Counted from the first letter of the stretch, positions 49,832-64,000 are shown. The stretch: 64,000 bases of DNA from Candidatus Parcubacteria bacterium (GCA_026395685.1 JAPLYG010000009.1:17519-81518), one strand, 5' to 3'. Notes: generated from the sequence alone by a model not told the origin. Numbers and translations are program-made.

Positions 49832-51253
49832 CTATTTTTCCAATTTATCATTAAAGTAGCTGCCTAAATCTGAAATTTTAATTCTTTCCTGTTTCATGGA
49901 ATCACGATCTCTGACCGTTACGCTATCATCTTTTTCCAGAGTTTCAAAGTCAACTGTAACGCAATAAGGCGTACCTATTTCATCCTGACGGCGGTAACGC
50001 TTGCCAATATTGCCGTTATCATCAAATTCGCACATATAACTCTGTCTTAAAATCTCATATATTTCTTTGGCTTTGGCGACTAACTGCGGCTTATTCTTTA
50101 ATAAAGGGAATATCGCAATTTTCACAGGAGCCAGACGCTTATCAATTTTCAAAACAACCCGCTGTTCACCTGCAACTTCTTCCTCAGTATAAGCACTATC
50201 CAAGAACATCAGCAATAAACGATTTAAGCCCACAGAGGTTTCCATAATATGAGGGAAAAAGCGTTCTTTGCTTTCCTCGTCAAAATATGTCAAATCAACA
50301 CCGGAATATTTCGCGTGTTGTGATAAATCCCAATCTCCCCTGGCGTGAATGCCTTCAATTTCCTTAAAGCCGCCCAAAGATTGAAAATTAAATTCAATAT
50401 CATAAGCATCGCTGGCATAATGAGCTAATTTCTCATGCTTATACCATTGAATCTTTTTTTCCGGAATACCATATTCCAAAAACCAATTCCAACGAATCTG
50501 CTTCCACTTCTCATATGTTTCTTTCATCTGCCCCGGCTTCAAGAAATATTGCATTTCCATTTGTTCAAATTCCCTGGTGCGAAAAATAAACTGACGGGCC
50601 ACAATCTCATTGCGAAAAGCCTTGCCGACCTGGGCAATGCCAAAAGGCAATTTGGGATGAAGGGTATCAACCGTATTTTTATATTCCAAATAAATGCCGC
50701 CGCAACTTTCCGGCCTTAAATATATAACATTCTCCTCAGTCAAAGCTTCAGTCGGCGAACCAAGATTGGATTTAACCATCAGGGAAAAAACTTTTGCTTC
50801 GGTTAACTCTTTGGAACCGCACACCGGACATTTCAATTTGCCGCTATTCCTGATTTCATCCAAACCCTTATTAATTTCTTCAATTGACGCCTTATCCATA
50901 TTAATTCCAAACTCTTCCAGCAAATGATCAGCCCGGAAGCGATTTTTGCATTTTTTACAATCAACCTGCGGATCATTAAAACCCGCGACATGACCGCTTG
51001 CCACCCAAGTCTGAGGGTGCATAAAAATAGCGCTATCCATGCCCAGCACATCGTCCCGCAATTGCACCATATGCCGCCACCAGGCATCACGGATATTATT
51101 TTTTAATAAAACCCCGTAATGGCCGTAATCATAGATTGCCTGAAGTCCGCCGTAAATTTCCGAGGAAGGAAAAACAAAACCCCGGCGCTTGCAGAATGAC
51201 ACGAGCTTTTCAATAGAGTTAGCTTCGCTTTTGGATTTTTCGTTTTTGGACAT
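49832..51253 (-). CDS. glyQS: glycine--tRNA ligase (alpha2 dimeric GlyQS type)
   Basis: N-terminal CKRRGFVFPSSEIYGGL, class II motifs, C-terminal anticodon-binding domain. Confidence 0.9.
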   Translation of the reverse strand: MSKNEKSKSEANSIEKLVSFCKRRGFVFPSSEIYGGLQAIYDYGHYGVLLKNNIRDAWWRHMVQLRDDVLGMDSAIFMHPQTWVASGHVAGFNDPQVDCKKCKNRFRADHLLEEFGINMDKASIEEINKGLDEIRNSGKLKCPVCGSKELTEAKVFSLMVKSNLGSPTEALTEENVIYLRPESCGGIYLEYKNTVDTLHPKLPFGIAQVGKAFRNEIVARQFIFRTREFEQMEMQYFLKPGQMKETYEKWKQIRWNWFLEYGIPEKKIQWYKHEKLAHYASDAYDIEFNFQSLGGFKEIEGIHARGDWDLSQHAKYSGVDLTYFDEESKERFFPHIMETSVGLNRLLLMFLDSAYTEEEVAGEQRVVLKIDKRLAPVKIAIFPLLKNKPQLVAKAKEIYEILRQSYMCEFDDNGNIGKRYRRQDEIGTPYCVTVDFETLEKDDSVTVRDRDSMKQERIKISDLGSYFNDKLEK

Positions 51254-53551: not shown

Positions 53552-54622
53552 TTACAAATTTATTAATAAATTTTCCGCTGCTAAACGCGGATTAATATTA
53601 TAAGTTAAATATTTTTTCAGCAAATTAACCTGGGCAAAAAGATCCAGCAGCTTATTAAAGTCATAGCGCAAAGAAACTTTTTTAAGCTGGGGCAAATAAT
53701 GCAGATTTATAATTAAATTATCGAGATTCTGGCGGGCAGCCAATAAATCATGAAGAATCAACTGCCAATTATCCAATTCTCCGGCCAGAATATTTGCCGA
53801 TTCCTTGGGATTTTTGGTTTGAGCAAAAACCTGTTCAATATTTTTAAAGCGGGAAACCAAATCCTGATCAAATAAGGAGACCAGCCGGTCCATCTGCTCT
53901 AAATATTCATCAAAAAAATCAGGATGCTGAAAATAGCTGATGGCTAGGCCGATTTGTCCCCTTGCCAGGGCAGTGAACTTTTCAGCCTGGCTGCGGCTCG
54001 AGCCCAAAGAAACTAAGTGATGAAAAATTTCATCGGCTGCCAACGGCTGAAATTTAATCAATTGACAGCGGGAAGCAATGGTCGGCAGGATTAAATTGGA
54101 ATCAGTGGTAATCAAAATTAATATTGTTTTCGGGCCAGGCTCCTCTAATATTTTCAATAACGCATTTTGGGCGCTTTCACTCAAGTCCTGGGCATTTTCA
54201 ACCAGCGCAAATTTGTAGGAGTTTAAAAACGAAGTCAGGTTTAAGAATTTATGCATTTCCCTTACCTGTTCCACACTGATATTTTTCTTATCTTCTTCCT
54301 TTTTTAAAATATAAATATCAGGATGAATATTTTTTTTTGCCTGTTGGCAGAAAGCGCATTGTCCGCAGGGGCTACTCTGCAAAGGCAACTTATTTTGCTG
54401 ATGGAAATCTTGGCATAAAATTGAGCTGATAAGCTTTTGCCCCACCAGTGATCTGCCTAAATGTTCCAAGCCAGAAAACAAGTAAGCATGGGCCAGTTTA
54501 TTGTTATTAAGGCTTTTTTGCAAATATTGCTGTATTTTTGAGTGGCCGACAACCTGCCAATTATAATTATTCATGACTTTATTATAGCTTAATCGCCGGT
54601 CTTCGTAAAGGCTTAAAAACAA
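53552..54622 (-). CDS. holB: DNA polymerase III delta-prime subunit (HolB)
   Basis: AAA+ fold with degenerate Walker A, zinc module CGQCAFCQ, Walker B-like ILIITT. Confidence 0.8.
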   Translation of the reverse strand: MFLSLYEDRRLSYNKVMNNYNWQVVGHSKIQQYLQKSLNNNKLAHAYLFSGLEHLGRSLVGQKLISSILCQDFHQQNKLPLQSSPCGQCAFCQQAKKNIHPDIYILKKEEDKKNISVEQVREMHKFLNLTSFLNSYKFALVENAQDLSESAQNALLKILEEPGPKTILILITTDSNLILPTIASRCQLIKFQPLAADEIFHHLVSLGSSRSQAEKFTALARGQIGLAISYFQHPDFFDEYLEQMDRLVSLFDQDLVSRFKNIEQVFAQTKNPKESANILAGELDNWQLILHDLLAARQNLDNLIINLHYLPQLKKVSLRYDFNKLLDLFAQVNLLKKYLTYNINPRLAAENLLINL

Positions 54623-54772
54623 GGCTAAAGGCTTAAGACTAAAGGCTAAAGGCTAAAGTTTAAAGGCTAAAGTATGGTAATTACAAATTTTCCTAAATTT
54701 AGACTTAACAAAAAAAACGCCCTAAATTAGGGCTTAATGAGTTCTAAGTTAATTATTTTATATAAAACCGAA

Positions 54773-55189
54773 TTATTTAGATTCCTGCTCCTTAATATAT
54801 CTTCTAATTCTATTAATCTCAAATCCCACAGTAGAAACAGCATAGCCCCTGGCCCAGAAATGTTCGCCGATAAAATTCCTTTCCTTGCCGCAAAACTGCC
54901 TGGCAATCAAAATAGCGCTTTTGCCTTTCAAATACCCGACAATTGAGGCCACCGCATACTTGGGCGGTATTTCAATGCACATATGCACATGATCCGGCAT
55001 AATATGGCCTTCAATTATCCTGCAACCTTTATATTTAGCCAATTCATGGAATATCCCGCCAAGCTGGAGCTTAATTTTTCCATAGAGAATGCTTTTGCGC
55101 CGTTGAGGAATAAAAATCAGATGATAAACGCAATCCCACCTGCTGTGGCACAAGCTTTGATAATTATGCATGTGATAATTTCCCTTCAC
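54773..55189 (-). mobile_element. tnpA: IS200/IS605-family transposase TnpA (HUH Y1), no tnpB
   Basis: 138 aa; HUH motif HVHM and catalytic Tyr region YAVSTVG; hairpin terminators on both flanks. Confidence 0.85.
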
Positions 55190-55280
55190 TCATCAAGCCT
55201 GAAGGAATTATAACCGATTTCTATGCATTAATTCAAAAAAACGCTGTCAAGCGTTTTTCAGAAGATATCTTATCAATATA

Positions 55281-55586
55281 TTAAGCATTCAGCTTCAAAT
55301 GATCTAGAACCTTTTTTAATGAAGACTCCAAACGGTCATATTTTGAGCGCAATGAAACCAATTCCAAGTCTAACTTTTGATGCAATCCGATAAATGAATC
55401 AATATGGGTTATTGTCTCATCTTTATTTTCCCTCATTTCATCCCTAACCTCTTTTAATTCTCCCCTTATTTCTCTAATATCATCCTTGGAAGCAAAATTC
55501 TTCAGATCATCCTTCGTCGGCGCAGTATCTTTAATAAAAGAGACTATCTCTAAAATATCGTTTAAATTTTTATCTTGATTATTCAT
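55281..55586 (-). CDS. hypothetical coiled-coil protein
   Basis: 101-aa charged ORF. Confidence 0.4.
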   Translation of the reverse strand: MNNQDKNLNDILEIVSFIKDTAPTKDDLKNFASKDDIREIRGELKEVRDEMRENKDETITHIDSFIGLHQKLDLELVSLRSKYDRLESSLKKVLDHLKLNA

Positions 55587-55728
55587 AAATTCAATATTAT
55601 TTTGTGTCTTTATTATAGCTTTATTGACGCTTCCCTGTCAAATACAAACTTTAAGCGATAATTACCGCCCAAAGGAACGCTCAAAGCTTATCAAGTCTCC
55701 CCAGCTAAAGCTGGGGGTTTTCCTATTT

Positions 55729-56556
55729 TTAATAAGCACCATAGGTTTCCAAGTCCATATTCCCGTTGTTGTCGTAGCTGACATCCACGCCTAAATCAGT
55801 GAAGTCCGTGACGGCATGTGGATTTGCGTACAAACTTCCTGTATTGCCATTATATTCATAATCCCCGACATCCGATTTATTCAGGATATTTCCGAGACTG
55901 TCATAGTTGTAAGTTTGCGTATAATCATCCTCCGTCGCCGAATCCGTTATCGTCGCGCCTGTCAGACGATACAAGTCATCATAAGCATAGGCGGCATTTT
56001 TTCGGGTATTTGTTTCAGATTGATCAATAATGCCAGTAATATTTCCAACATCGTCGTAAGTATATGCCAAATCCTGTATTCTCTTTCCGGCCATGACAAA
56101 ATAATCGTTTCCATTAGTCCATTCTCCTTCATTGTCCGACTCATCCCATAACTTAATTCTCCAATTATATTTCATCCCATTCAAAGCCAGCGGATCACCG
56201 CCATAAGAAATGTCTTCAGTGCGGTCGCCTTCAAGCACAGAGGTGGCAAAGGCGGTTTTTTCGCTATCCCAAAGAGGATCATTCCAATCGCCATCGTAAG
56301 GAATAACCTGTATTTGATAATAGTCGGCGTAATCCCCTGTATCAGGATCATCATAAATCGCTGAAAATTCAGGCGTAGTGTCAGAAATTTTGGTCGCCTG
56401 CTGCGGCCAGAGGCGCACCTGGTCCAGCTTAATCCAGCTTGTTTCCTCACCCAAATAGAAAATCAAACGAGCGTCGGATTCAGTCACATTCGGAGTCAGC
56501 TCAATCTGGAATTTGGCAAATTCGCTGATTGAATTGCATGCGGAATCAATTTTCAT
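55729..56556 (-). pseudogene. orphan 5'- and 3'-truncated near-duplicate of an internal segment (CBM end + YD repeats) of the giant toxin gene
   Basis: Protein nearly identical to the giant protein from ...EFAKFQIELTPNVTESDARLIFYLGEETSWIKLDQVRLWPQQATKISDTTPE to ...VSYDNNGNMD; DNA near-identical by eye to ~58510-59300. Confidence 0.75.
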
Positions 56557-56697
56557 AAATACTAATTCTCAAATGGACTACTTTAATTAATGACTTCATA
56601 GCCAAAATTAGGGTTAGTTTTCTTTAGCTCATTCAAAAAATCAAAAAATTATCTATATATTTTTTAAATACCAAATTTTGAATCTTTTTATAATTTT

Positions 56698-56868
56698 TCA
56701 ATTCGAAAAATACATTTTCATCGCTATAACTATATGCATCAAAAAAGCATCCAAGTTTTTGCCATAACCAATTATCAAGCTGGATAAATTCAATTTTCTT
56801 TCCAAGTAACTATTTAATTCGACGGCTGTATTAATTTTACCAAAATCAAAAATAATAGTTTTTTTCAT
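56698..56868 (-). CDS. unannotated 56-aa ORF (MKKTIIFDFGKINTAVELNSYLERKLNLSSLIIGYGKNLDAFLMHIVIAMKMYFSN)
   Basis: Hand translation; below ORF-track cutoff; sits between the immunity candidate and the orphan fragment. Confidence 0.25.
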   Translation of the reverse strand: MKKTIIFDFGKINTAVELNSYLERKLNLSSLIIGYGKNLDAFLMHIVIAMKMYFSN

Positions 56869-56897
56869 AAATTTCTACTTAATTCTTTCCAGATTGA

Positions 56898-57272
56898 CTA
56901 GTATAAACAATATTCCTTTGTTTCATAATAAGGCAGCTCCTTTATCGGAGCCCCCGGTAAAATTCTATCAACATAAGCATTATTAAATTTAACAAGCTCG
57001 GCTTTGAATATTTTATTGTCCTTTATATAAACTAAACCTTCAGAAAAGTCGTTTGTTCTAAAGAATAAAATTACTCCGCCTCTATATTCGCAGGTAATTA
57101 TTTCATTGGACTCCGCAAAATTGATAGCGCCAACCCTTCCTTTAAAATAATTAATCGCCGCTGGCGAATCGACTTTATGCATAGTGTTATAATCCCAAAA
57201 CCATATTAAATAAATGATTGCCAAAAGCAGGGAAATACTTATGAGGATTATTTTTCGATACTTTTTATTCAT
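56898..57272 (-). CDS. putative cognate immunity protein (N-terminal TM anchor, 124 aa)
   Basis: Starts 18 nt after the stop of the toxin gene, co-oriented; no known domain. Confidence 0.45.
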   Translation of the reverse strand: MNKKYRKIILISISLLLAIIYLIWFWDYNTMHKVDSPAAINYFKGRVGAINFAESNEIITCEYRGGVILFFRTNDFSEGLVYIKDNKIFKAELVKFNNAYVDRILPGAPIKELPYYETKEYCLY

Positions 57273-57289
57273 AATTTTTATATATTAAA

Positions 57290-60200
57290 TTAGTCTAAAT
57301 TAAGCGATCCTACTTTCTGTACATTTTCTATTGAATTATTACTGTTCAGGAAATCCGATAATGAGGCATTAGGATTTTCTTTTAGTAATTGACCAAATTG
57401 TGCGCCGAGCTGATTAGCTTGAATATCATTGAAATCATATTTTTCCCGTCCAGATGTAAAAATAATTTCCCAGTTTTCAACTAAATTACCAAGAACATTT
57501 ACAGTTTCTGGCCCAAACATATAAGATAACAAGGCAGAGGCAAAAAAATGCTGTAATTTATCTGTATTATCCAAAAAAGTATCAGTAGTATATTGTCCAA
57601 ATAATCCGCTAGGCAAATCGAAAATCCTCTCTTTCCTATCTTTGTTATTTACATCAGCACTGTTAAAACTTGTCCTCGTAGCTTCCATCATAACATATAA
57701 TGTTTCCTCTGTATTTCCACCTGTTAAATTATTAGCATAATTATAAATCTTATTCAAGCCTTGTATATTACTATCGCCAGATTGCATGTTTAAATTATTC
57801 TTCACGAAATTATTTGTTAAACTTACATTCAAAATTGTGAAAATTCCCACTGGCCCCTCACCTGTTGGATCTACATAAACAAAGGGCCTATTGGCCACAT
57901 AACTATATGAATTCAAACTCTGCGGATCTATTAAAATATCAAATGATTTTTTACCATACTTCTTTCTCAAATCTGTTCCCATATCCAAAAACATCGGATC
58001 CTCGCTCACAAACCTCCCCGCTTCCCCGCTATAATACCTCGCCCCAAAGTACTGCAATCCCGACGAGTCGGTTTCAATTTCCTTTTGGGTGAATTTTTTC
58101 CTTTGGTCAAAAGACCCGTTTTCAGGATCGCTTTGTTCGTTAAAGCGCATATTGCCAAATGGATAGTAATCAACTACCTGCTCAACATCCCCGTCATCCT
58201 TAGTCATGACACTGCTTGATGTCAAATGGTCGTCATGGACATAATATTCATTGCGATTTGTTCCGTCGTCTGTGATCGTCAGCACAAGCTGGTTATTGGC
58301 GTAAACATTTTCAGTAATTGTCTCATCCTCGCCGACAATCTTTTTATCAAAGTATTTATTGGGATAAACAATAATTTCGCTTCCAGAATCAATGTCCTTG
58401 ATTATCCTTTGTCCAGCATGATCGTAACCATAACTTGCAGGAGTTGCCCAAATTCCGTCGCTTGTCGCCATTCGGTTATTATAATCCCAATCCGCCTCAA
58501 AAACAGTATAAGCTCCGAGTGTTTCCGCATCCATATTGCCATTATTATCATAACTCACCTCCACACCTAAATCCGTGAAATCCGTAACAGCATGCGGGTT
58601 TGCGTATAAGCTTCCTGTATTCCCGTTGTACTCGTAGTCCCCGACATCTGATTTTGACAGGATATTGCCTAAGCTGTCATAAGTAAATGTCTGCGTGTAG
58701 TCATCCTCCGTCGCCGAATCCGTAATCGTCGCTGAAGTTAATCTGTATAAATCATCATATGCATAAGCGGCATTCTTTCGGGTATTTGTTTCAGATTGAT
58801 CAACAATTTCAGTAATATTGCCCACATCATCGTAAGTATAAGCTAAATCCTGAATACGCTTTCCCGCCATCACGAAATAATCATTCCCATTCGTCCACTC
58901 GCCCTCATTATCCGATTCATCCCACAGTTTAATTCTCCAGTAATACTTCATCCCATCTAGCATTAAAGCATCCCCGCCATAGCTGATATCCTCGGATCTA
59001 TCTCCTTCATCTACTGAATTTGTGAAAGCAGTCTTGCCGGAATCCCAAATCGGATCATTCCAATTACCGTCATACTTAATCACTTGGATTTGATAATCAG
59101 TTGCGGAATCCCCAGTATCAGGATCATCATAAATCGCTGATAATTCAGGAGTAGTGTCAGAAATCTTAGTCGCCTGCTGGGGCCACAATCGCACCTGATC
59201 CAGCTTGATCCAGCTTGTTTCCTCACCCAAATAGAAAATCAGCCGAGCGTCGGATTCCGTTACATTCGGAGTCAGCTCAATCTGGAATTTGGCAAATTCA
59301 CCGTTATTCCAGACAGTGTCAAATGGCACGACTGAACTTATCTCACTAAAGGGGTTGTAATTCAGGGTTATGGCTGCTCGGGCTGTCCTGGGATCGTAAT
59401 TCTCTGAATGGGCGTAAAATGTAAGAATATAGGTTTGGTCTTCAACAACTGAAATCGGCTGGGCAAGAGACACTTCCCAGTATCCTCCGCCGGTTGTCAC
59501 AGTTACTTTGTCGCAGGAATTGCCATCATAAGACTCGGTATCGTCAATCGCATTGGTTCCCGTTCCGTCCGGATAACCTTTACTGGTGAAGTACCAGGTA
59601 TTGCCCCAGTTTTCAAAGCTCGGATCGGTTATCATGTTCAGATCATCAGGAGTCAAGGAAACATCATCAATCCAGTATGTTCCCGCATTGTCGCCCAGAT
59701 GGAAAGTAATAATGGAATTTTCATCATCAACCGCAACTGTGAAAGTATAGGAGTATTCCTGCCAATCAGTTCCGGCTTCTATTGTTCTGTAAATGCCCTG
59801 CTGGGTCCAGGGTGAATGGTTTTGGTAAGCCTGAATGAAAAATTCTGTTGCGGTTGAAGCCTTGGCCCAGAATTTCCAGGTGTAATTTTTGCCGGCAAGC
59901 AATTTGACCGACTGGCCCACATGCACTTCCCAGGGCTCGCCTGTTGTGGATACAATCACTTTTTCCGAACATGATCCGCTGTGCGATACTGTGCAGTCTT
60001 CAGTATGCGTCGCATCCAGCTCATTCTGCCAGTTCCAGCTGTCAAATCCGTCCTCAAAGCCGGAATTGTACAGGATATTCGCGCTTTTCCATAAATCTTC
60101 GGACAGCAGGTCTGTTGATGGATCAGGAGGATTGACGCTTAAAAGCATATTTTCGCCCAGGCTTTCTTTTTGTTTTTCCAGAAAATCAATCATTCCCTGG

Positions 60201-63200
60201 GGCAAGTATTTTAATTCAGGCTCTTTTTGAGATTCTTTCGCCTTATCAAACATTTCAATTGCTTCTTTGGGCAAAGGTTCGGGTTTGACATTGGGATCGT
60301 ATTTAACATAAATTGTTTCGTCTTTAGGATAGTTGTCATAGCGGACAGGACGGCCCAGAAAGTCGCGCTTAACCTTGTTTGCGGATTTTTCATTACTGCT
60401 TGCCTCCTTGATATCCGTAGATCCGTAGCCAATCTGTAGATTAGTAACAATATCAACGCCAGGCAGAGTTTCCAGAAAACCGCCGACTGCCTGACCAACA
60501 GAAGCTAACGGATTGCCAATAAGGGTTGCGGGTGTACTGGATTCTTCGTCCCGCGCCGCGGGACTCTGAATGACAGTGGGTGGTGCGGCAATCAAGGATT
60601 CTTCGTCCCGCTCCGCGGGACTCTGAATGACAGAGGAGGTCGCCATCATCAATCCTTCGCCGTAGTCGCCCTCATCAGGACTTGCCGTTATTTTCTCTTT
60701 CAAACGATACAGCTTGGCCTCGTCATAGTCATTGAATGTTTTCACTCCATTGGCGTTTTCCTGGTACGCGACCTGCTCCAAAGGCGAATAATCATAATCG
60801 CTCACAATATCGCTAAACGACTCTTCGCCATCAGGCTTGCTCTGCACTTTTTCCAAAAGACCTGCAGTATTGTAAACATACTGAACTTCATCGTCATTGG
60901 GATAGGTAATCAAAATCTGGTTTCCCTGGCGATCATAGCCATACTCGGTCAAATAATTCGTAGAATCAATATTTTTATTCTCGGTCTTAACCCCGCCTAA
61001 AGCATTGTAAGTATAAGTTGTCACAACATCAGCTGTTGTCGCCGTGTACAATCTGCCAATCCCGTCAGTGCCGGTGTCATAAACATAAGCCACTTCGGTT
61101 CCGCTTTGGCCCGTGTAATTCTCGGTTAAAACGCGGTTGATGTCGTCATACGACCAGTTGACTGTCTGGTTTTTCGGATCTACGCGCGAAGTTAAATTTC
61201 CCGAATCATCATAGCCGTATGTCCATTCGCCGAAAGTCTCGTCTTCAGGATCATGCAAATCTTCGGCTGTGAGCCTCCTGCCAAGTCCGTCATAAGTGAA
61301 ATTGCGAATATTGTCCTGCGAATCTTCAATTTGAGTTAAATTGCCCAAGCCATTATAGGCGTAATTTGTGGTATAAGTATTAGCGCCATTATGTTCGTCA
61401 ACCTGGATTAAATTGTCATAAGCGTCCTTGTACAAATCCTTGACATTGCTTTCCGCGTCAGTAATCGTCAGTTTCCAGTCATCATAGGTATTGGTCGTTG
61501 TTCCAACCGCGTTGGTCGCTGTTAAAACCCTTTGCAAGGGATCATAAGTGTAGGAAGTATATAACGCCGTATCAGTGGTCGCCGTTGTCTGAGCTGAACC
61601 TGTGGAAAAGTACGGCAAAGATTCCTTGTCTAAAAGACCAACGTCATTGTAAGCGTAATCTTTGGCTGAATAAGTATTTGAAGCCTCAGACTCTTTACGC
61701 TCCTGAATTTTCCTGCCAAATCCGTCAAGATAAGTGTAAATATCAAAACTGGTTGAAGAATCAAGATTATTTGTCTGCTGAACTTTGGTTGGCACAGTGT
61801 TATCGGTATAAGTGTATTCTGTTTTAATAACCAAAGTGCTCGGAGTAGACAGATAAGGCTGTTTTTCCTGCTTTACCCTATCCAAAGCGTCATAGACCGT
61901 CTGGAATACCCGGCTGTTGGGATCAGTCACTTGCGTCGGCTTACCCAAAGAATAATCATATTCATAATCCGTATCCTGGTCTAAAGCATTTGTTACTGTG
62001 GCAGGATATAAATTATATGTGTCATAAGTATAATCAGTTGTCTTGTCCTGCGGATCTTTTTCTTGAGTTACTAATCCGTACGCATTATATGTTTTTTCAA
62101 TATCAATATAGCTTGTGCCTGACTTCCACATTTCCTGCTTTGTTAAATTGCCTTCGTCAACATTGCCCAAAGTTAAACTATCATAATAATATTTAGTTTC
62201 TTTAACTTTATTGGAACTCTGGTCAATTGTAGTTTCCTGGCTGGGCAAGCCAATAACATCACTGCCGGTAGTGGCGGCATAATCAATGTCAGTAGTATAT
62301 TTATCAGACCCCGTATCCGTGAATGTTCCATTTGAATTGCCGGAAACTTCGCCCCAGGTTATTTTCTGGGTCAGATTGCCGTTATCATTGTCATATGCAT
62401 AAGTCTCGGCCGTGTCCTTATGGCTGGTATTCCCGTCAAAAGCAAAGCCGATTGTCTGGGTCTGCTTCACAAAGTCCCTGTCATCACCCAAATCGTAATT
62501 TTCCCATTTATTGACGCTAAAACGGAAAAGATTGGCGCTGTCATCATAGATTTCCGTGCGGTACGGCTTGCCGATTTTTGACGCGTCATCCAAATACTCG
62601 CCGTTGCCAGTATCAGTACCATTGCCCTGATGGAAAAAAGTCATAGCTACATTGCCGTCTCCATCAACTTTGGCAATCTGATTAAAGCCTGCGAATTTGC
62701 GGTTCAGATAGTCTTCATAATAATAATCCCCGCCGACATAAAAATACGATTCAGATGAGAGATTATCAAAACTGTCGTTGTATTCAATATAGTTTACTGT
62801 CTGGACAGCAAAAGGCAGGTCAGGATTTTGCAAACTGTCATTTTCAATATATTGTGGCGAGGCTTTATAGGTTACGCTAAACTCTCCGCCTTTGGCATTG
62901 GTTGATTCGGAAAGTAAGTCGGCTTTAAACCCCATATTCAACACGACCCCGCCACCTATAGTCGGAGGTGGGTTACTATTTTTATAACCATATATAATAT
63001 CGGGCAAACTATCTCCATTAATGTCTGAAATATGTACACCATTACCATTGCTATTATTGAGAACTCCTCCGAACAGAGGGATATAACTTGTATTCTGTTG
63101 TAACCATCCGTGCCCTGTATTTATAAATACTCTATGTATACCTGGGGAAGAAAGATAAAGTGATTGGACTAAATCGGTCAGGCCATCCCCATTTACATCA

Positions 63201-64000
63201 GCCGCACGAACACCATTATCAATCGGATAAGCATACCAGTCTGCCCAATCCTCATAAAAAATAACTGGAGCTATTAAATTTTCATCCTCTATCCAACCTC
63301 CGTTACCGTCATTAATATATGTGGCCTGCTCAATCCGATCCAATTCCGGATGTTCATACATTGCGTGCCAATACCAAGAACGCATGACATCCTCTAAACC
63401 ATCTCCGTTAAAATCCGCAATAATTGTCCCACTTCTTAAATCAGCTGGCGGGACTAGATTTGTTTGGATTGCCCATGTATTATCGCCATTGTTTAGTGAA
63501 ACTGATCCTGAAATTGGATCATCGGGCTGCCAACCTGTTGGTTTATATCCTTGAATAATATCTGGCAGACCATCTCCATTTATTTCCGCAAAAAATGTCC
63601 CATGAGATAACAATGATTGTGCACTGCCAAAAGTAGGTATATAATCAATATTTTGCATTGACCAGCCAGTACCTGTATTAAAATATATTTTATGGATACT
63701 TGATGGCGAAGCACCTAAAGACTGGACCAAATCAGTTAAGCCGTCACCATTAACATCAGCCGCCCTAACTCCATTATCATATGGCCAGCCATTCCAGACT
63801 TCATCATAATAAAAAATTAGAGGCGGAGCTAATTCTTCACTTTCAATCCAACCGCCATGTCCGTCATTAAGATATGTTGCAATCTCATCAGGATCTTCAT
63901 TCTGAGGACTATATGATCTTAAAATGTCAGGCAAACCATCGCCATTAACATCGGCTACAATTACACCCTTGCGTAAATCACAAGGTGGATACCAGTCTTC
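57290..64000 (-). CDS. giant polymorphic-toxin-like surface protein (FG-GAP-like repeats, YD/RHS repeats, two CBM4/9-like modules, RHS core ending NSYSYVANRPFVYVDPTGE, ~210-aa unclassified C-terminal domain). N-terminus lies beyond the window edge
   Basis: Repeated DVNGDGLxD, many YxYDxxGNL YD repeats, GFEDGFDSWNWQ and DPSFENWGNTWYF CBM-like starts. The reading frame stays open through 63935-64000. Confidence 0.85.
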   Translation of the reverse strand, partial: EDWYPPCDLRKGVIVADVNGDGLPDILRSYSPQNEDPDEIATYLNDGHGGWIESEELAPPLIFYYDEVWNGWPYDNGVRAADVNGDGLTDLVQSLGASPSSIHKIYFNTGTGWSMQNIDYIPTFGSAQSLLSHGTFFAEINGDGLPDIIQGYKPTGWQPDDPISGSVSLNNGDNTWAIQTNLVPPADLRSGTIIADFNGDGLEDVMRSWYWHAMYEHPELDRIEQATYINDGNGGWIEDENLIAPVIFYEDWADWYAYPIDNGVRAADVNGDGLTDLVQSLYLSSPGIHRVFINTGHGWLQQNTSYIPLFGGVLNNSNGNGVHISDINGDSLPDIIYGYKNSNPPPTIGGGVVLNMGFKADLLSESTNAKGGEFSVTYKASPQYIENDSLQNPDLPFAVQTVNYIEYNDSFDNLSSESYFYVGGDYYYEDYLNRKFAGFNQIAKVDGDGNVAMTFFHQGNGTDTGNGEYLDDASKIGKPYRTEIYDDSANLFRFSVNKWENYDLGDDRDFVKQTQTIGFAFDGNTSHKDTAETYAYDNDNGNLTQKITWGEVSGNSNGTFTDTGSDKYTTDIDYAATTGSDVIGLPSQETTIDQSSNKVKETKYYYDSLTLGNVDEGNLTKQEMWKSGTSYIDIEKTYNAYGLVTQEKDPQDKTTDYTYDTYNLYPATVTNALDQDTDYEYDYSLGKPTQVTDPNSRVFQTVYDALDRVKQEKQPYLSTPSTLVIKTEYTYTDNTVPTKVQQTNNLDSSTSFDIYTYLDGFGRKIQERKESEASNTYSAKDYAYNDVGLLDKESLPYFSTGSAQTTATTDTALYTSYTYDPLQRVLTATNAVGTTTNTYDDWKLTITDAESNVKDLYKDAYDNLIQVDEHNGANTYTTNYAYNGLGNLTQIEDSQDNIRNFTYDGLGRRLTAEDLHDPEDETFGEWTYGYDDSGNLTSRVDPKNQTVNWSYDDINRVLTENYTGQSGTEVAYVYDTGTDGIGRLYTATTADVVTTYTYNALGGVKTENKNIDSTNYLTEYGYDRQGNQILITYPNDDEVQYVYNTAGLLEKVQSKPDGEESFSDIVSDYDYSPLEQVAYQENANGVKTFNDYDEAKLYRLKEKITASPDEGDYGEGLMMATSSVIQSPAERDEESLIAAPPTVIQSPAARDEESSTPATLIGNPLASVGQAVGGFLETLPGVDIVTNLQIGYGSTDIKEASSNEKSANKVKRDFLGRPVRYDNYPKDETIYVKYDPNVKPEPLPKEAIEMFDKAKESQKEPELKYLPQGMIDFLEKQKESLGENMLLSVNPPDPSTDLLSEDLWKSANILYNSGFEDGFDSWNWQNELDATHTEDCTVSHSGSCSEKVIVSTTGEPWEVHVGQSVKLLAGKNYTWKFWAKASTATEFFIQAYQNHSPWTQQGIYRTIEAGTDWQEYSYTFTVAVDDENSIITFHLGDNAGTYWIDDVSLTPDDLNMITDPSFENWGNTWYFTSKGYPDGTGTNAIDDTESYDGNSCDKVTVTTGGGYWEVSLAQPISVVEDQTYILTFYAHSENYDPRTARAAITLNYNPFSEISSVVPFDTVWNNGEFAKFQIELTPNVTESDARLIFYLGEETSWIKLDQVRLWPQQATKISDTTPELSAIYDDPDTGDSATDYQIQVIKYDGNWNDPIWDSGKTAFTNSVDEGDRSEDISYGGDALMLDGMKYYWRIKLWDESDNEGEWTNGNDYFVMAGKRIQDLAYTYDDVGNITEIVDQSETNTRKNAAYAYDDLYRLTSATITDSATEDDYTQTFTYDSLGNILSKSDVGDYEYNGNTGSLYANPHAVTDFTDLGVEVSYDNNGNMDAETLGAYTVFEADWDYNNRMATSDGIWATPASYGYDHAGQRIIKDIDSGSEIIVYPNKYFDKKIVGEDETITENVYANNQLVLTITDDGTNRNEYYVHDDHLTSSSVMTKDDGDVEQVVDYYPFGNMRFNEQSDPENGSFDQRKKFTQKEIETDSSGLQYFGARYYSGEAGRFVSEDPMFLDMGTDLRKKYGKKSFDILIDPQSLNSYSYVANRPFVYVDPTGEGPVGIFTILNVSLTNNFVKNNLNMQSGDSNIQGLNKIYNYANNLTGGNTEETLYVMMEATRTSFNSADVNNKDRKERIFDLPSGLFGQYTTDTFLDNTDKLQHFFASALLSYMFGPETVNVLGNLVENWEIIFTSGREKYDFNDIQANQLGAQFGQLLKENPNASLSDFLNSNNSIENVQKVGSLNLD

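What the first reader, a model, noticed from the sequence alone, without database searches (positions are those of the whole stretch)
55729..56556. Orphan internal toxin-gene fragment duplicated ~2 kb downstream (recombination cassette or decayed paralog)
Positions 55729-56556 (minus) encode a protein nearly identical to the giant protein from EFAKFQIELTPNV... through ...VSYDNNGNMD, and then stop. The DNA is near-identical by eye to ~58510-59300 (not computed). The fragment lacks both ends of the gene and sits between the immunity candidate and the IS200 tnpA. Polymorphic toxin loci typically carry displaced orphan modules used for recombinational switching. This one, however, is an internal CBM/YD segment rather than a C-terminal tip. 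That points either to a disrupted second paralog or to an unusual internal-module exchange.
Basis: seen in the sequence. Interest (0 to 1): 0.6.

Follow-up and report, generated by a model that had tools for sequence, protein, structure and literature searches.

The report
IS200-truncated orphan RHS toxin-gene remnant
This is a leftover middle piece of an old copy of the neighbouring giant RHS toxin gene, cut off where an IS200 insertion sequence begins; it carries no toxin and is an ordinary by-product of how such toxin loci evolve.

Summary
The duplication is real, but the DNA is not near-identical. Window 56523-55732 (minus strand) aligns without gaps to 59299-58508 of the giant RHS gene over 792 nt (264 codons). 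Identity is 79.5% at the nucleotide level and 90.5% at the amino-acid level. Of 162 differences, 117 fall at third codon positions (omega about 0.03).

The copy is a mosaic. The first ~200 nt are about 90% identical and the remaining 591 nt are 76% identical. The break (56326-56338) coincides with the fixed 5' boundary of orphan cassettes in a Falkowbacteria genome and a metagenome contig.

The 3' end of the fragment, including its stop codon, is the first base of the left end of an IS200-type element. That end is a ~68-nt block with a covarying hairpin. It abuts RHS fragments at four different RHS positions in four assemblies. In compact relatives it lies ~100 nt upstream of tnpA.

The fragment holds the last ~25 residues of a CBM domain, an Ig-like domain and 2-3 YD repeats. 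It has no RHS core-end domain, no toxin and no immunity gene.

Verdict: a toxin-less orphan remnant, not a usable switching cassette and not an assembly artefact. It is a new member of a known kind and of low-to-moderate interest.

The parts
55729..56556 (-). Fragment ORF of 275 aa, annotated in NCBI as a hypothetical protein (NTZ49_02475) of a Candidatus Parcubacteria MAG. It has 11 unrelated N-terminal codons, 264 RHS-derived codons and a stop codon supplied by the IS200 left end.
56323..56523 (-). Constant-region piece of the fragment. It encodes the last ~25 residues of the second CBM_4_9 domain and the start of the Ig-like domain. It is 90% nt identical to 59099-59299. At positions with the same amino acid, 77% of codons are identical (40% expected at random).
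55732..56322 (-). Cassette-region piece of the fragment: the rest of the Ig_Rha78A_N domain and 2-3 YD repeats. It is 76% nt and 89% aa identical to 58508-59098. At positions with the same amino acid, 47% of codons are identical (42% expected at random). Its 5' limit equals the 5' boundary of all orphan cassettes in the Falkowbacteria array and in L004.
58508..59299 (-). Counterpart segment inside the giant RHS gene (residues 1546-1809 of the ORF as listed).
57290..64000 (-). Main RHS/YD polymorphic toxin gene. Its reading frame is open to the window edge. Domains: FG-GAP repeats, YD repeats, two CBM_4_9, Ig_Rha78A_N, YD repeats, RHS-associated core domain, then a ~190-aa C-terminal region with no family match.
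56898..57272 (-). Candidate immunity gene of the main toxin (124 aa). It has no family match; the assignment rests on position only.
56600..56868 (-). Possible frameshifted barstar-like immunity remnant, with two frameshifts at T6 runs. The evidence is weak.
55664..55731 (-). Left-end block of an IS200-type element: a 14-nt leader, a hairpin, then GACTTGATAAGCTTTGAGCGTTCC. It starts immediately after the last RHS-homologous base, at the junction GCTTAT|TAAAAATAGG.
55699..55716 (.). Left-end hairpin CCCCAGC-TTTA-GCTGGGG. On the + strand it reads as an intrinsic terminator. Its position (nt 16-33 of the element) matches the published IS200 left-end terminator hairpin (nt 12-34). Three of its seven pairs covary across nine loci.
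55281..55586 (-). Passenger ORF of 101 aa lying between the IS200 left end and tnpA. It has its own 12/12 sigma-70-like promoter at 55612-55641. L009 has a homologue (56% identity) at the same position.
54773..55189 (-). IS200/IS605-family Y1 transposase gene tnpA.
54719..54742 (-). Right-side conserved motif ACTCATTAAGCC, complementary to GGCTTGATGAG in the tnpA 5'UTR, followed by a small hairpin. This is the probable right-end region of the element. holB follows it.

Best explanation
The fragment is the surviving 5' part of an old orphan or displaced 3' cassette of the neighbouring RHS toxin gene. Most probably it has no function of its own.

History, inferred:
1. A copy of the 3' region of the main gene, starting 67 codons upstream of the usual cassette boundary, came to lie downstream of the main gene. 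This is the normal layout of RHS orphan arrays.
2. The cassette portion of one of the two copies was later exchanged for a long-diverged cassette. The exchange started at the fixed cassette boundary near 56322/59098 and gave the 90%/76% mosaic.
3. The rest of the copy was lost in an event at the left end of a resident IS200 element that sits upstream of holB. The lost part comprised the remaining YD repeats, the RHS core-end domain, the toxin and the immunity gene. The RHS sequence was joined at a TTAT to the first base of the element.
4. That join arose in one of two ways. Either the IS inserted into the orphan and two IS copies then recombined, or a transposase-mediated deletion occurred next to the left end. 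Which of the two is not resolved.

Shown: the homology, the mosaic, the lack of toxin parts, the identity of the junction sequence as an IS200 left end, and the recurrence of RHS|left-end junctions at different RHS positions.

Inferred: the order of events and the deletion mechanism.
For: Homology and divergence:
- The homology is ungapped over 792 nt, at 79.5% nt and 90.5% aa identity. dN is 0.074 and synonymous sites are saturated.
- In the cassette part, positions with the same amino acid share the same codon 47% of the time, against 42% expected at random.
- Amino-acid changes polarised with outgroups are symmetrical: 10 F-derived, 9 G-derived, 6 ambiguous. Almost all divergence therefore arose while both copies were under purifying selection, and truncation is late.

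Mosaic:
- The maximum chi-square breakpoint lies at 56326-56338, reached by 0 of 500 permutations.
- It coincides with the 5' boundary of orphan cassettes in the Falkowbacteria array and in L004.
- Falkowbacteria main gene versus its orphans shows the same pattern: 76-78% nt and 83% aa identity.
- Those orphans carry distinct toxins.

Missing parts:
- Pfam and NCBIfam find only Ig_Rha78A_N and one YD repeat in the fragment.
- TIGR03696 (RHS-associated core domain) is found in the main gene only.
- The fragment begins inside a CBM_4_9 domain.

The 3' junction:
- The ~68-nt block after the fragment recurs at 93-96% identity after RHS fragments truncated at other positions in Falkowbacteria and L004, and at 88% over 41 nt in L010.
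- In compact elements (L005-L007, L010-L014) the block is contiguous with tnpA.
- Its hairpin covaries: 3 of 7 pairs, 93% of cells paired, 0 of 500 shuffles reaching the observed score.
- Its layout matches the published IS200 left end (PMC4513863).
- holB follows tnpA in the window and in L009-L012. The right side is therefore ancestral and only the left side varies.
- No other RHS sequence exists in the window.

Precedent: toxin-less and IS-disrupted orphan fragments are described for polymorphic toxin loci (PMC3150448).
Against: - The ORF is intact over 264 codons with omega about 0.03 and has its own ATG. This would also fit a fragment that is still under selection.
- No strain carrying the intact parental orphan was found. 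The scans of the protein database, genome contigs and metagenome contigs gave nothing closer than 71-81%. The history is therefore reconstructed, not observed.
- The IS target motif is not uniform (TTAT, TTAT, TTAC, TTGAC), and the Falkowbacteria junction is ambiguous by a few bases.
- A passenger gene lies between the left-end block and tnpA in the window, which is atypical for IS200.
- The origin of the 5' breakpoint at 56523/56524 is unexplained.
Confidence: 0.78

Rival explanations
1. The fragment is the remnant of a second, independent RHS paralogue rather than of a downstream orphan cassette. That paralogue could be full-length, or a 'short form' with its own signal peptide, CBM-CBM-Ig-YD region and toxin. 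It would have been destroyed at both ends.
For: - The fragment extends 67 codons upstream of the usual orphan boundary, into the CBM domain.
- The Falkowbacteria array contains a short-form gene with a signal peptide (CBM-CBM-Ig-YD), split into 609-aa and 443-aa ORFs.
- Divergence from the main gene is old.
Against: - The 200 nt upstream of the boundary are much closer to the main gene (90% identity) than the rest. This fits a local duplication of the main gene better than an old separate paralogue.
- No further paralogue sequence exists in the window.
- The two readings differ only in history, not in present function.
Confidence: 0.2
2. The fragment is kept by selection as a functional unit. 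It could act as a stand-alone protein, or as a homology arm that captures incoming cassettes or lets the cell delete its toxin end by recombination with the main gene.
For: - The reading frame is intact, omega is about 0.03, and the fragment shows no excess of derived amino-acid changes.
- Exact matches of 38, 34 and 28 nt with the main gene are long enough for RecA-type recombination.
- There is weak sign that sequence just upstream of the ATG has decayed faster.
Against: - It starts inside a CBM domain, lacks a signal peptide and ends inside the YD-repeat region, so it is unlikely to fold.
- The equivalent fragments in Falkowbacteria, L004 and L010 have different lengths and reading frames, and one has no start codon. 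The ORF as such is not conserved.
- No strong promoter lies upstream.
- It has no toxin to donate.
- Recombination with the main gene would also delete the immunity gene.
Confidence: 0.07
3. Assembly artefact: the duplicate is a mis-joined or chimeric piece from a co-occurring strain.
For: The window comes from a metagenome-assembled genome. Repeats in RHS loci often break assemblies, and contigs of relatives stop just upstream of tnpA.
Against: - The copies differ at 20% of bases, far beyond strain-level variation that assemblers collapse or chimerise.
- Both junctions are to unique sequence inside the contig, and the 3' junction is a precise IS200 end.
- The same architecture is seen in three independent assemblies, including a 455-kb contig.
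Confidence: 0.03

Closest known systems
Orphan rhs-CT/rhsI (and cdiA-CT/cdiI) modules downstream of full-length polymorphic toxin genes (Poole et al. 2011, PMC3150448; Koskiniemi et al. 2014, PMC3967940)
   Same: - It lies downstream of the main RHS gene and in the same orientation.
- It shares a stretch of the conserved region with the main gene.
- It lacks the N-terminal delivery part.
- It sits in a locus whose orthologue in a related genome has a multi-cassette orphan array with different toxins.
- Fragments without a toxin or immunity gene, and orphans disrupted by IS elements, are already described.
   Different: - It has no demarcating RHS core-end domain, no toxin and no immunity gene, so it is a remnant and not a module.
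- The shared region is unusually long and begins in an Ig-like domain far upstream of the toxin.
- The host is a Candidate Phyla Radiation bacterium with no T6SS context examined.
- DNA divergence from the main gene is very high (76-80% identity), whereas orphan core fragments in enterobacteria are typically closer to their main gene (from memory).
IS200 of Salmonella/Enterobacteriaceae (IS200/IS605 family, IS200 group; Ellis et al. 2015, PMC4513863)
   Same: - It has a Y1 transposase (NF033573, 132 bits).
- The left end carries a terminator-type hairpin about 15 nt from the tip, and a second stem-loop over the ribosome-binding region.
- It is single-copy, apparently immobile and a long-term resident, as described for IS200.
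   Different: - In the window, Falkowbacteria, L004, L008 and L009 the element carries a passenger gene or genes between the left-end block and the tnpA promoter.
- The right end is not defined here.
- The target motif is only suggested (TTAY/TTGAC).
E. coli Rhs elements with downstream H-rpt (ISAs1-type) insertion sequences (from memory; not checked in the library)
   Same: An insertion sequence sits at the distal end of an Rhs element, next to core fragments.
   Different: The IS family and the host are different. No claim of a shared mechanism is made.

Membership tests
Orphan rhs-CT/immunity module | Lies downstream of a full-length rhs gene, in the same orientation, and shares core sequence with it | tested here: met
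   The offset is 2776 nt on the same strand, with 792 nt of ungapped homology.
Orphan rhs-CT/immunity module | Encodes the RHS-associated core end (TIGR03696 / PxxxxDPxGL region) followed by a distinct C-terminal toxin domain | tested here: not met
   The fragment ends at the equivalent of giant-gene residue 1809. TIGR03696 is found only in the main gene. The fragment hits only Ig_Rha78A_N and a YD repeat.
Orphan rhs-CT/immunity module | Followed by a cognate immunity gene | tested here: not met
   The next base after the RHS homology is the IS200 left end. After that come a 101-aa passenger ORF and tnpA.
RHS/YD-repeat polymorphic toxin (the main gene) | YD/RHS repeats, an RHS-associated core domain, a variable C-terminal region and a small downstream gene | tested here: met
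   RHS_repeat E = 7e-24; TIGR03696 scores 52.9 bits against a cut-off of 32.5; the ~190-aa C-terminus has no family match; a 124-aa ORF lies downstream. Toxicity and immunity were not tested.
IS200/IS605 family, IS200 group | Y1 (HuH) transposase TnpA | tested here: met
   PF01797 E = 4.6e-35; NF033573 scores 132 bits against a cut-off of 55.
IS200/IS605 family, IS200 group | Subterminal hairpin at the left end (IS200: terminator hairpin at nt 12-34) and a second stem-loop at the tnpA ribosome-binding site | tested here: met
   The hairpin lies at nt 16-33 of the block. Three of seven pairs covary across nine loci, and 0 of 500 shuffles reach the observed score. The block is contiguous with tnpA in compact relatives. 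The second stem CCTTCA..TGAAGG is predicted by folding. Published layout.
IS200/IS605 family, IS200 group | Insertion 3' of a fixed tetra- or pentanucleotide, with no inverted repeats and no target duplication | tested here: inconclusive
   The junction motifs are TTAT, (A)TTAT, TTAC, TTGAC and TTGAC. This is suggestive but not uniform. The right-end junction is not defined.
IS200/IS605 family, IS200 group | Mobility: several copies, or different genomic positions | tested here: not met
   The window holds one copy. The tnpA-holB adjacency is conserved in five loci. The element behaves as a resident one. Whole genomes could not be scanned.
Barstar-type immunity protein (remnant at 56600-56868) | Significant match to the Barstar family over most of its length | tested here: inconclusive
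   A hand-repaired 95-aa sequence scores E = 0.0077 and 16.6 bits, below the cut-off of 23.4. There is no PDB match.

The most novel reading that the evidence does not exclude
In this clade of Candidate Phyla Radiation bacteria, a resident IS200 element at the distal end of the RHS locus may actively prune or remodel the orphan array. Its Y1 transposase would join the left end to TTAY/TTGAC sites inside RHS cassettes by one-ended, left-end-adjacent deletion. The same element also has a slot between its left end and tnpA that takes up passenger genes. If so, an apparently immobile IS200 would be a site-specific editor of a polymorphic toxin locus, and the fragment would be the footprint of such an event.
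Probability: 0.15. Interest if true: 0.55.

Novelty: new member of a known kind. Interest (0 to 1): 0.3.

Why it matters
The fragment itself matters little. It shows that RHS loci of Parcubacteria and Falkowbacteria evolve by the same orphan-cassette dynamics as those of Proteobacteria. The differences are an unusually long exchange unit (Ig-like domain to toxin) and very old cassette lineages held under strong protein-level constraint.

For annotation, the 275-aa 'hypothetical protein' should be read as a gene remnant whose stop codon belongs to an insertion sequence.

The side observation is worth a focused look. RHS fragments are joined at four different positions to the exact left end of a conserved, resident IS200, and that IS200 also carries variable passenger genes. 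The reason to look is that left-end-adjacent deletions by single-strand Y1 transposases are, to my knowledge, not well documented.

Tried and rejected
- Exact-protein look-up of the fragment found no record.
- Rfam at a permissive threshold over 54500-57400 found no RNA family. The hairpin block is therefore not a known RNA.
- I considered the block as a + strand small RNA or terminator of a neighbouring gene. I rejected this because the block is contiguous with tnpA in compact elements and follows the IS200 left-end layout.
- I tried to confirm the barstar-like remnant. Only a sub-threshold Pfam hit was found and nothing in PDB.
- I looked for a closer full-length relative of the fragment in the protein database, genome contigs and metagenome contigs. 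The best hits were 71-81% identical, and they were themselves orphan fragments.
- I looked at P0004 as a possible conserved stand-alone fragment. Its context looks like a split RHS gene, and no DNA was available.
- I suspected synonymous divergence 'beyond saturation'. I rejected this as an artefact of Nei-Gojobori site counting. The codon-identity test shows near-random but not over-dispersed codons.
- I suspected that the main gene is a pseudogene because it was missing from the protein hits. Its frame simply runs off the window edge.
- Single-sequence folding energies of the IS ends are not distinguishable from shuffles. The structural claim rests on covariation only.

Full report
**1. The observation**

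The ORF at 55729-56556 (minus strand, 275 aa) exists. A direct repeat with a constant offset of 2776 nt links it to the giant RHS gene.

In register, 56523-55732 equals 59299-58508 without any gap over 792 nt, or 264 codons. Similarity falls to background on both sides within a few bases. tblastn gives E = 3e-139, and there is no other RHS-like sequence in the window outside the giant gene.

Identity is 79.5% at the nucleotide level and 90.5% at the amino-acid level. The 162 differences split 29/16/117 over the three codon positions. Nei-Gojobori pS is 0.71 and dN is 0.074, so omega is about 0.03.

**2. What the fragment contains**

- Pfam finds Ig_Rha78A_N at residues 54-148 and one RHS/YD repeat.
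- NCBIfam finds a YD repeat only.
- The homology starts about 25 residues before the end of the second CBM_4_9 domain of the giant protein.
- It stops after 2-3 YD repeats, about 115 residues before the RHS-associated core domain. That domain (TIGR03696, 52.9 bits) is present only in the main gene.
- The first 11 residues are unrelated to the giant gene, and there is no signal peptide.
- The fragment therefore has neither toxin, nor core end, nor immunity gene.

**3. Mosaic divergence**

Identity is about 90% over the first 200 nt and 76% over the remaining 591 nt. The maximum chi-square breakpoint lies at 56326-56338 and is not reached in any of 500 permutations.

Take the positions where both copies encode the same amino acid. 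In the first 67 codons, 77% of them use the same codon. In the last 197 codons only 47% do, against 42% expected if synonymous codons were drawn at random. Synonymous sites of the cassette part are thus almost fully randomised, while the protein stays 89% identical.

I polarised the 25 amino-acid differences with eight outgroup sequences. Ten changes fall on the fragment's branch, nine on the main gene's branch, and six are ambiguous. The fragment has therefore not decayed faster than the main gene. Nearly all divergence arose while both sequences were parts of working genes, or the fragment is still constrained. From dN and dS I estimate that a neutral phase can cover only a few per cent of the divergence. 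This figure is an inference.

**4. Related loci**

The fragment is NTZ49_02475 of a Candidatus Parcubacteria MAG, on a contig of 164.6 kb.

A Candidatus Falkowbacteria MAG (CAVZGV010000004.1, 455 kb) has the orthologous locus. It holds a 2562-aa main gene, followed in the same orientation by the following elements (toxin and domain assignments):

- a 562-aa orphan with a Tox-REase-7 toxin;
- a 319-aa ORF;
- a CBM-CBM-Ig-YD gene with a signal peptide, split into 609-aa and 443-aa ORFs;
- three small ORFs;
- a 564-aa orphan with an SLT-type toxin;
- a 113-aa ORF;
- a 361-aa truncated, toxin-less orphan (P0002, the best database hit of the fragment);
- a 205-aa ORF;
- a 38-codon RHS scrap;
- a HicB-like ORF;
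- an IS200 tnpA.

All orphans there begin within about 12 nt of one point, in the motif YYQ(I/V)Q. The fragment in metagenome contig L004 begins at the same point. That point corresponds to window 56322, which is the mosaic breakpoint of section 3.

In the Falkowbacteria locus, main gene versus orphans gives the same numbers as here: 76-78% nt identity, 83% aa identity and pS about 0.7. The pattern is therefore the norm for these arrays. In this clade the exchange unit runs from the Ig-like domain to the toxin.

A conversion or replacement tract that starts exactly at the orphan 5' boundary is what one expects if the donor was an orphan-type cassette (inference).

**5. The 3' end**

Directly after the last homologous codon (GCT TAT) comes TAAAAATAGGAAAACCCCCAGCTTTAGCTGGGGAGACTTGATAAGCTTTGAGCGTTCCTTTGGGCGG (55731-55664). 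The same ~68-nt block follows RHS fragments that are cut at other places:

| Locus | Block identity | Last RHS residues before the block |
|---|---|---|
| Falkowbacteria MAG | 96% | LEGNRTEDI |
| L004 | 93% | KRIQDLTY |
| L010 | 88% over 41 nt | ENIYANNELVLT (giant-gene residue 1874) |

I found further loci through tnpA homologues. In L005-L007 and L010-L014 the block lies about 100 nt upstream of the tnpA start. There it is contiguous with a TATAAT box and a stem-loop over the ribosome-binding region.

The hairpin in the block covaries. Three of seven pairs show compensatory changes, 93% of cells are paired, and no shuffle of 500 reaches the observed score.

This is the published layout of the IS200 left end: a terminator hairpin at nt 12-34 and a second stem-loop that sequesters the ribosome-binding site (PMC4513863). 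On the + strand the hairpin scores as an intrinsic terminator.

The fragment's stop codon is therefore the first three bases of an IS200 left end.

Junction motifs on the RHS side are TTAT, (A)TTAT, TTAC and TTGAC. A non-RHS junction in L011 also has TTGAC. This suggests, but does not prove, transposase target specificity.

**6. Which side moved**

holB follows tnpA in the window and in L009, L010, L011 and L012. The right side of the element is thus ancestral, and the element behaves as a resident one. Only the left side varies.

L009 and L010 encode the same TnpA and share the same downstream DNA. They nevertheless have different left flanks, a membrane-protein gene in one and an RHS fragment in the other.

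No RHS continuation follows the element in any locus. The junction is therefore not a simple insertion. Two explanations remain:

- A second IS copy inserted into the orphan, and recombination between the two copies then removed the intervening DNA.
- A one-ended, transposase-mediated deletion occurred next to the left end.

The data do not separate the two.

**7. Function**

The most likely reading is that the fragment has no function. The reasons are:

- It starts inside a domain, lacks export signals and ends inside the YD-repeat region.
- No strong promoter lies upstream of it.
- The equivalent scraps in other genomes differ in length and frame, and one has no start codon.

Exact matches of 38, 34 and 28 nt with the main gene would allow rare homologous recombination. 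The product would lack the toxin, the core end and the immunity gene, so the fragment cannot act as a switching cassette.

A constrained stand-alone role cannot be excluded, because the frame is intact and omega is low. I rate it unlikely.

**8. Artefact**

Twenty per cent divergence concentrated at third codon positions, unique flanks, a base-precise IS end, and the same architecture in three other independent assemblies all argue strongly against mis-assembly.

**9. Comparison with known systems**

Orphan rhs and cdiA modules are well described. So are fragments without a toxin or immunity gene, and orphans disrupted by IS elements (PMC3150448; PMC3967940).

The fragment fails two defining features of an intact orphan module: a toxin with its core end, and an immunity gene. 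It is best filed as a remnant of such a module.

Novelty: a new member of a known kind, in a poorly studied phylum. Overall interest is low to moderate.

The recurrent RHS|IS200-left-end junctions and the passenger-gene slot in this IS200 lineage are the most interesting by-products.

Noticed in passing
window 55195-55664 (minus strand); L009 565-1077; L004 1854-3002; L002 11880-12558: This IS200 lineage has a 'slot' between its left-end block and the tnpA promoter, and the slot holds different self-contained passenger genes. The window has a 101-aa ORF with a perfect sigma-70-like promoter, and L009 has its 110-aa homologue. The Falkowbacteria MAG has a HicB-like ORF. L004 and L008 have a 176-aa + 138-aa pair. 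L005, L010 and L011 have nothing there.
   Followed up: partly
window 53552-55189; L009, L010, L011, L012: The adjacency of IS200 tnpA and holB (DNA polymerase III delta') is conserved in five loci whose TnpA proteins are only 75-78% identical to the window's. The element looks like an old, immobile resident. In L008, tnpA instead abuts the homologue of the 473-aa tRNA synthetase-like gene at window 49832-51253; L005 likewise has a class II tRNA-synthetase gene just downstream of tnpA.
   Followed up: partly
window 56600-56868 (minus strand): A small gene with two frameshifts at T6 runs. When repaired by hand it gives a weak, sub-threshold match to Barstar (E = 0.0077). It may be an orphan immunity pseudogene left from a lost RNase-toxin cassette.
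   Followed up: partly
window 60511-60645 (minus strand, inside the giant gene): A 57-nt tandem repeat (about 2 copies, 88% match) encodes a 19-residue repeated linker (..VIQSPAERDEES..). It lies between the first YD-repeat block and the CBM domains.
   Followed up: no
window 54621-54672: A heptanucleotide tandem repeat (AAGGCTA, 7.4 copies) lies between the right side of the IS200 element and the start of holB. It is absent from the shorter spacer of L009 and L011.
   Followed up: no
L002 3012-6368 (Falkowbacteria MAG): A 'short-form' RHS gene with its own signal peptide, two CBM_4_9 domains, an Ig-like domain, YD repeats and a toxin. It is split into 609-aa and 443-aa ORFs by a deletion or frameshift that removes about 90 residues. 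This shows that the C-terminal half of the giant protein can exist as a separate gene.
   Followed up: partly
window 55205-55215 and 54731-54742; same positions in all tnpA loci: GGCTTGATGAG in the tnpA 5'UTR is complementary to CTCATYARGCC, which lies 20-35 nt after the tnpA stop codon. This is conserved in every locus examined. It could be a long-range RNA pairing or the pair of end-recognition sequences of the element.
   Followed up: no
window 56524-56568 (minus strand): The 45 nt upstream of the fragment's sharp 5' breakpoint show weak gapped similarity to the corresponding part of the giant gene (2 of 500 shuffles reach the score). This may be a decayed extension of the homology.
   Followed up: partly
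L005, L006, L007, L008, L010 (contig starts): Independent assemblies break 30-155 nt upstream of tnpA, in or just before the IS200 left end (L008, which carries passenger genes, breaks inside them). This is as expected if repeated RHS-type sequence lies to the left. The 50 nt available in L005 and L006 translate to DCTEAVDGQCADPSNP, which resembles the CBM region of RHS proteins but is too short to call.
   Followed up: no
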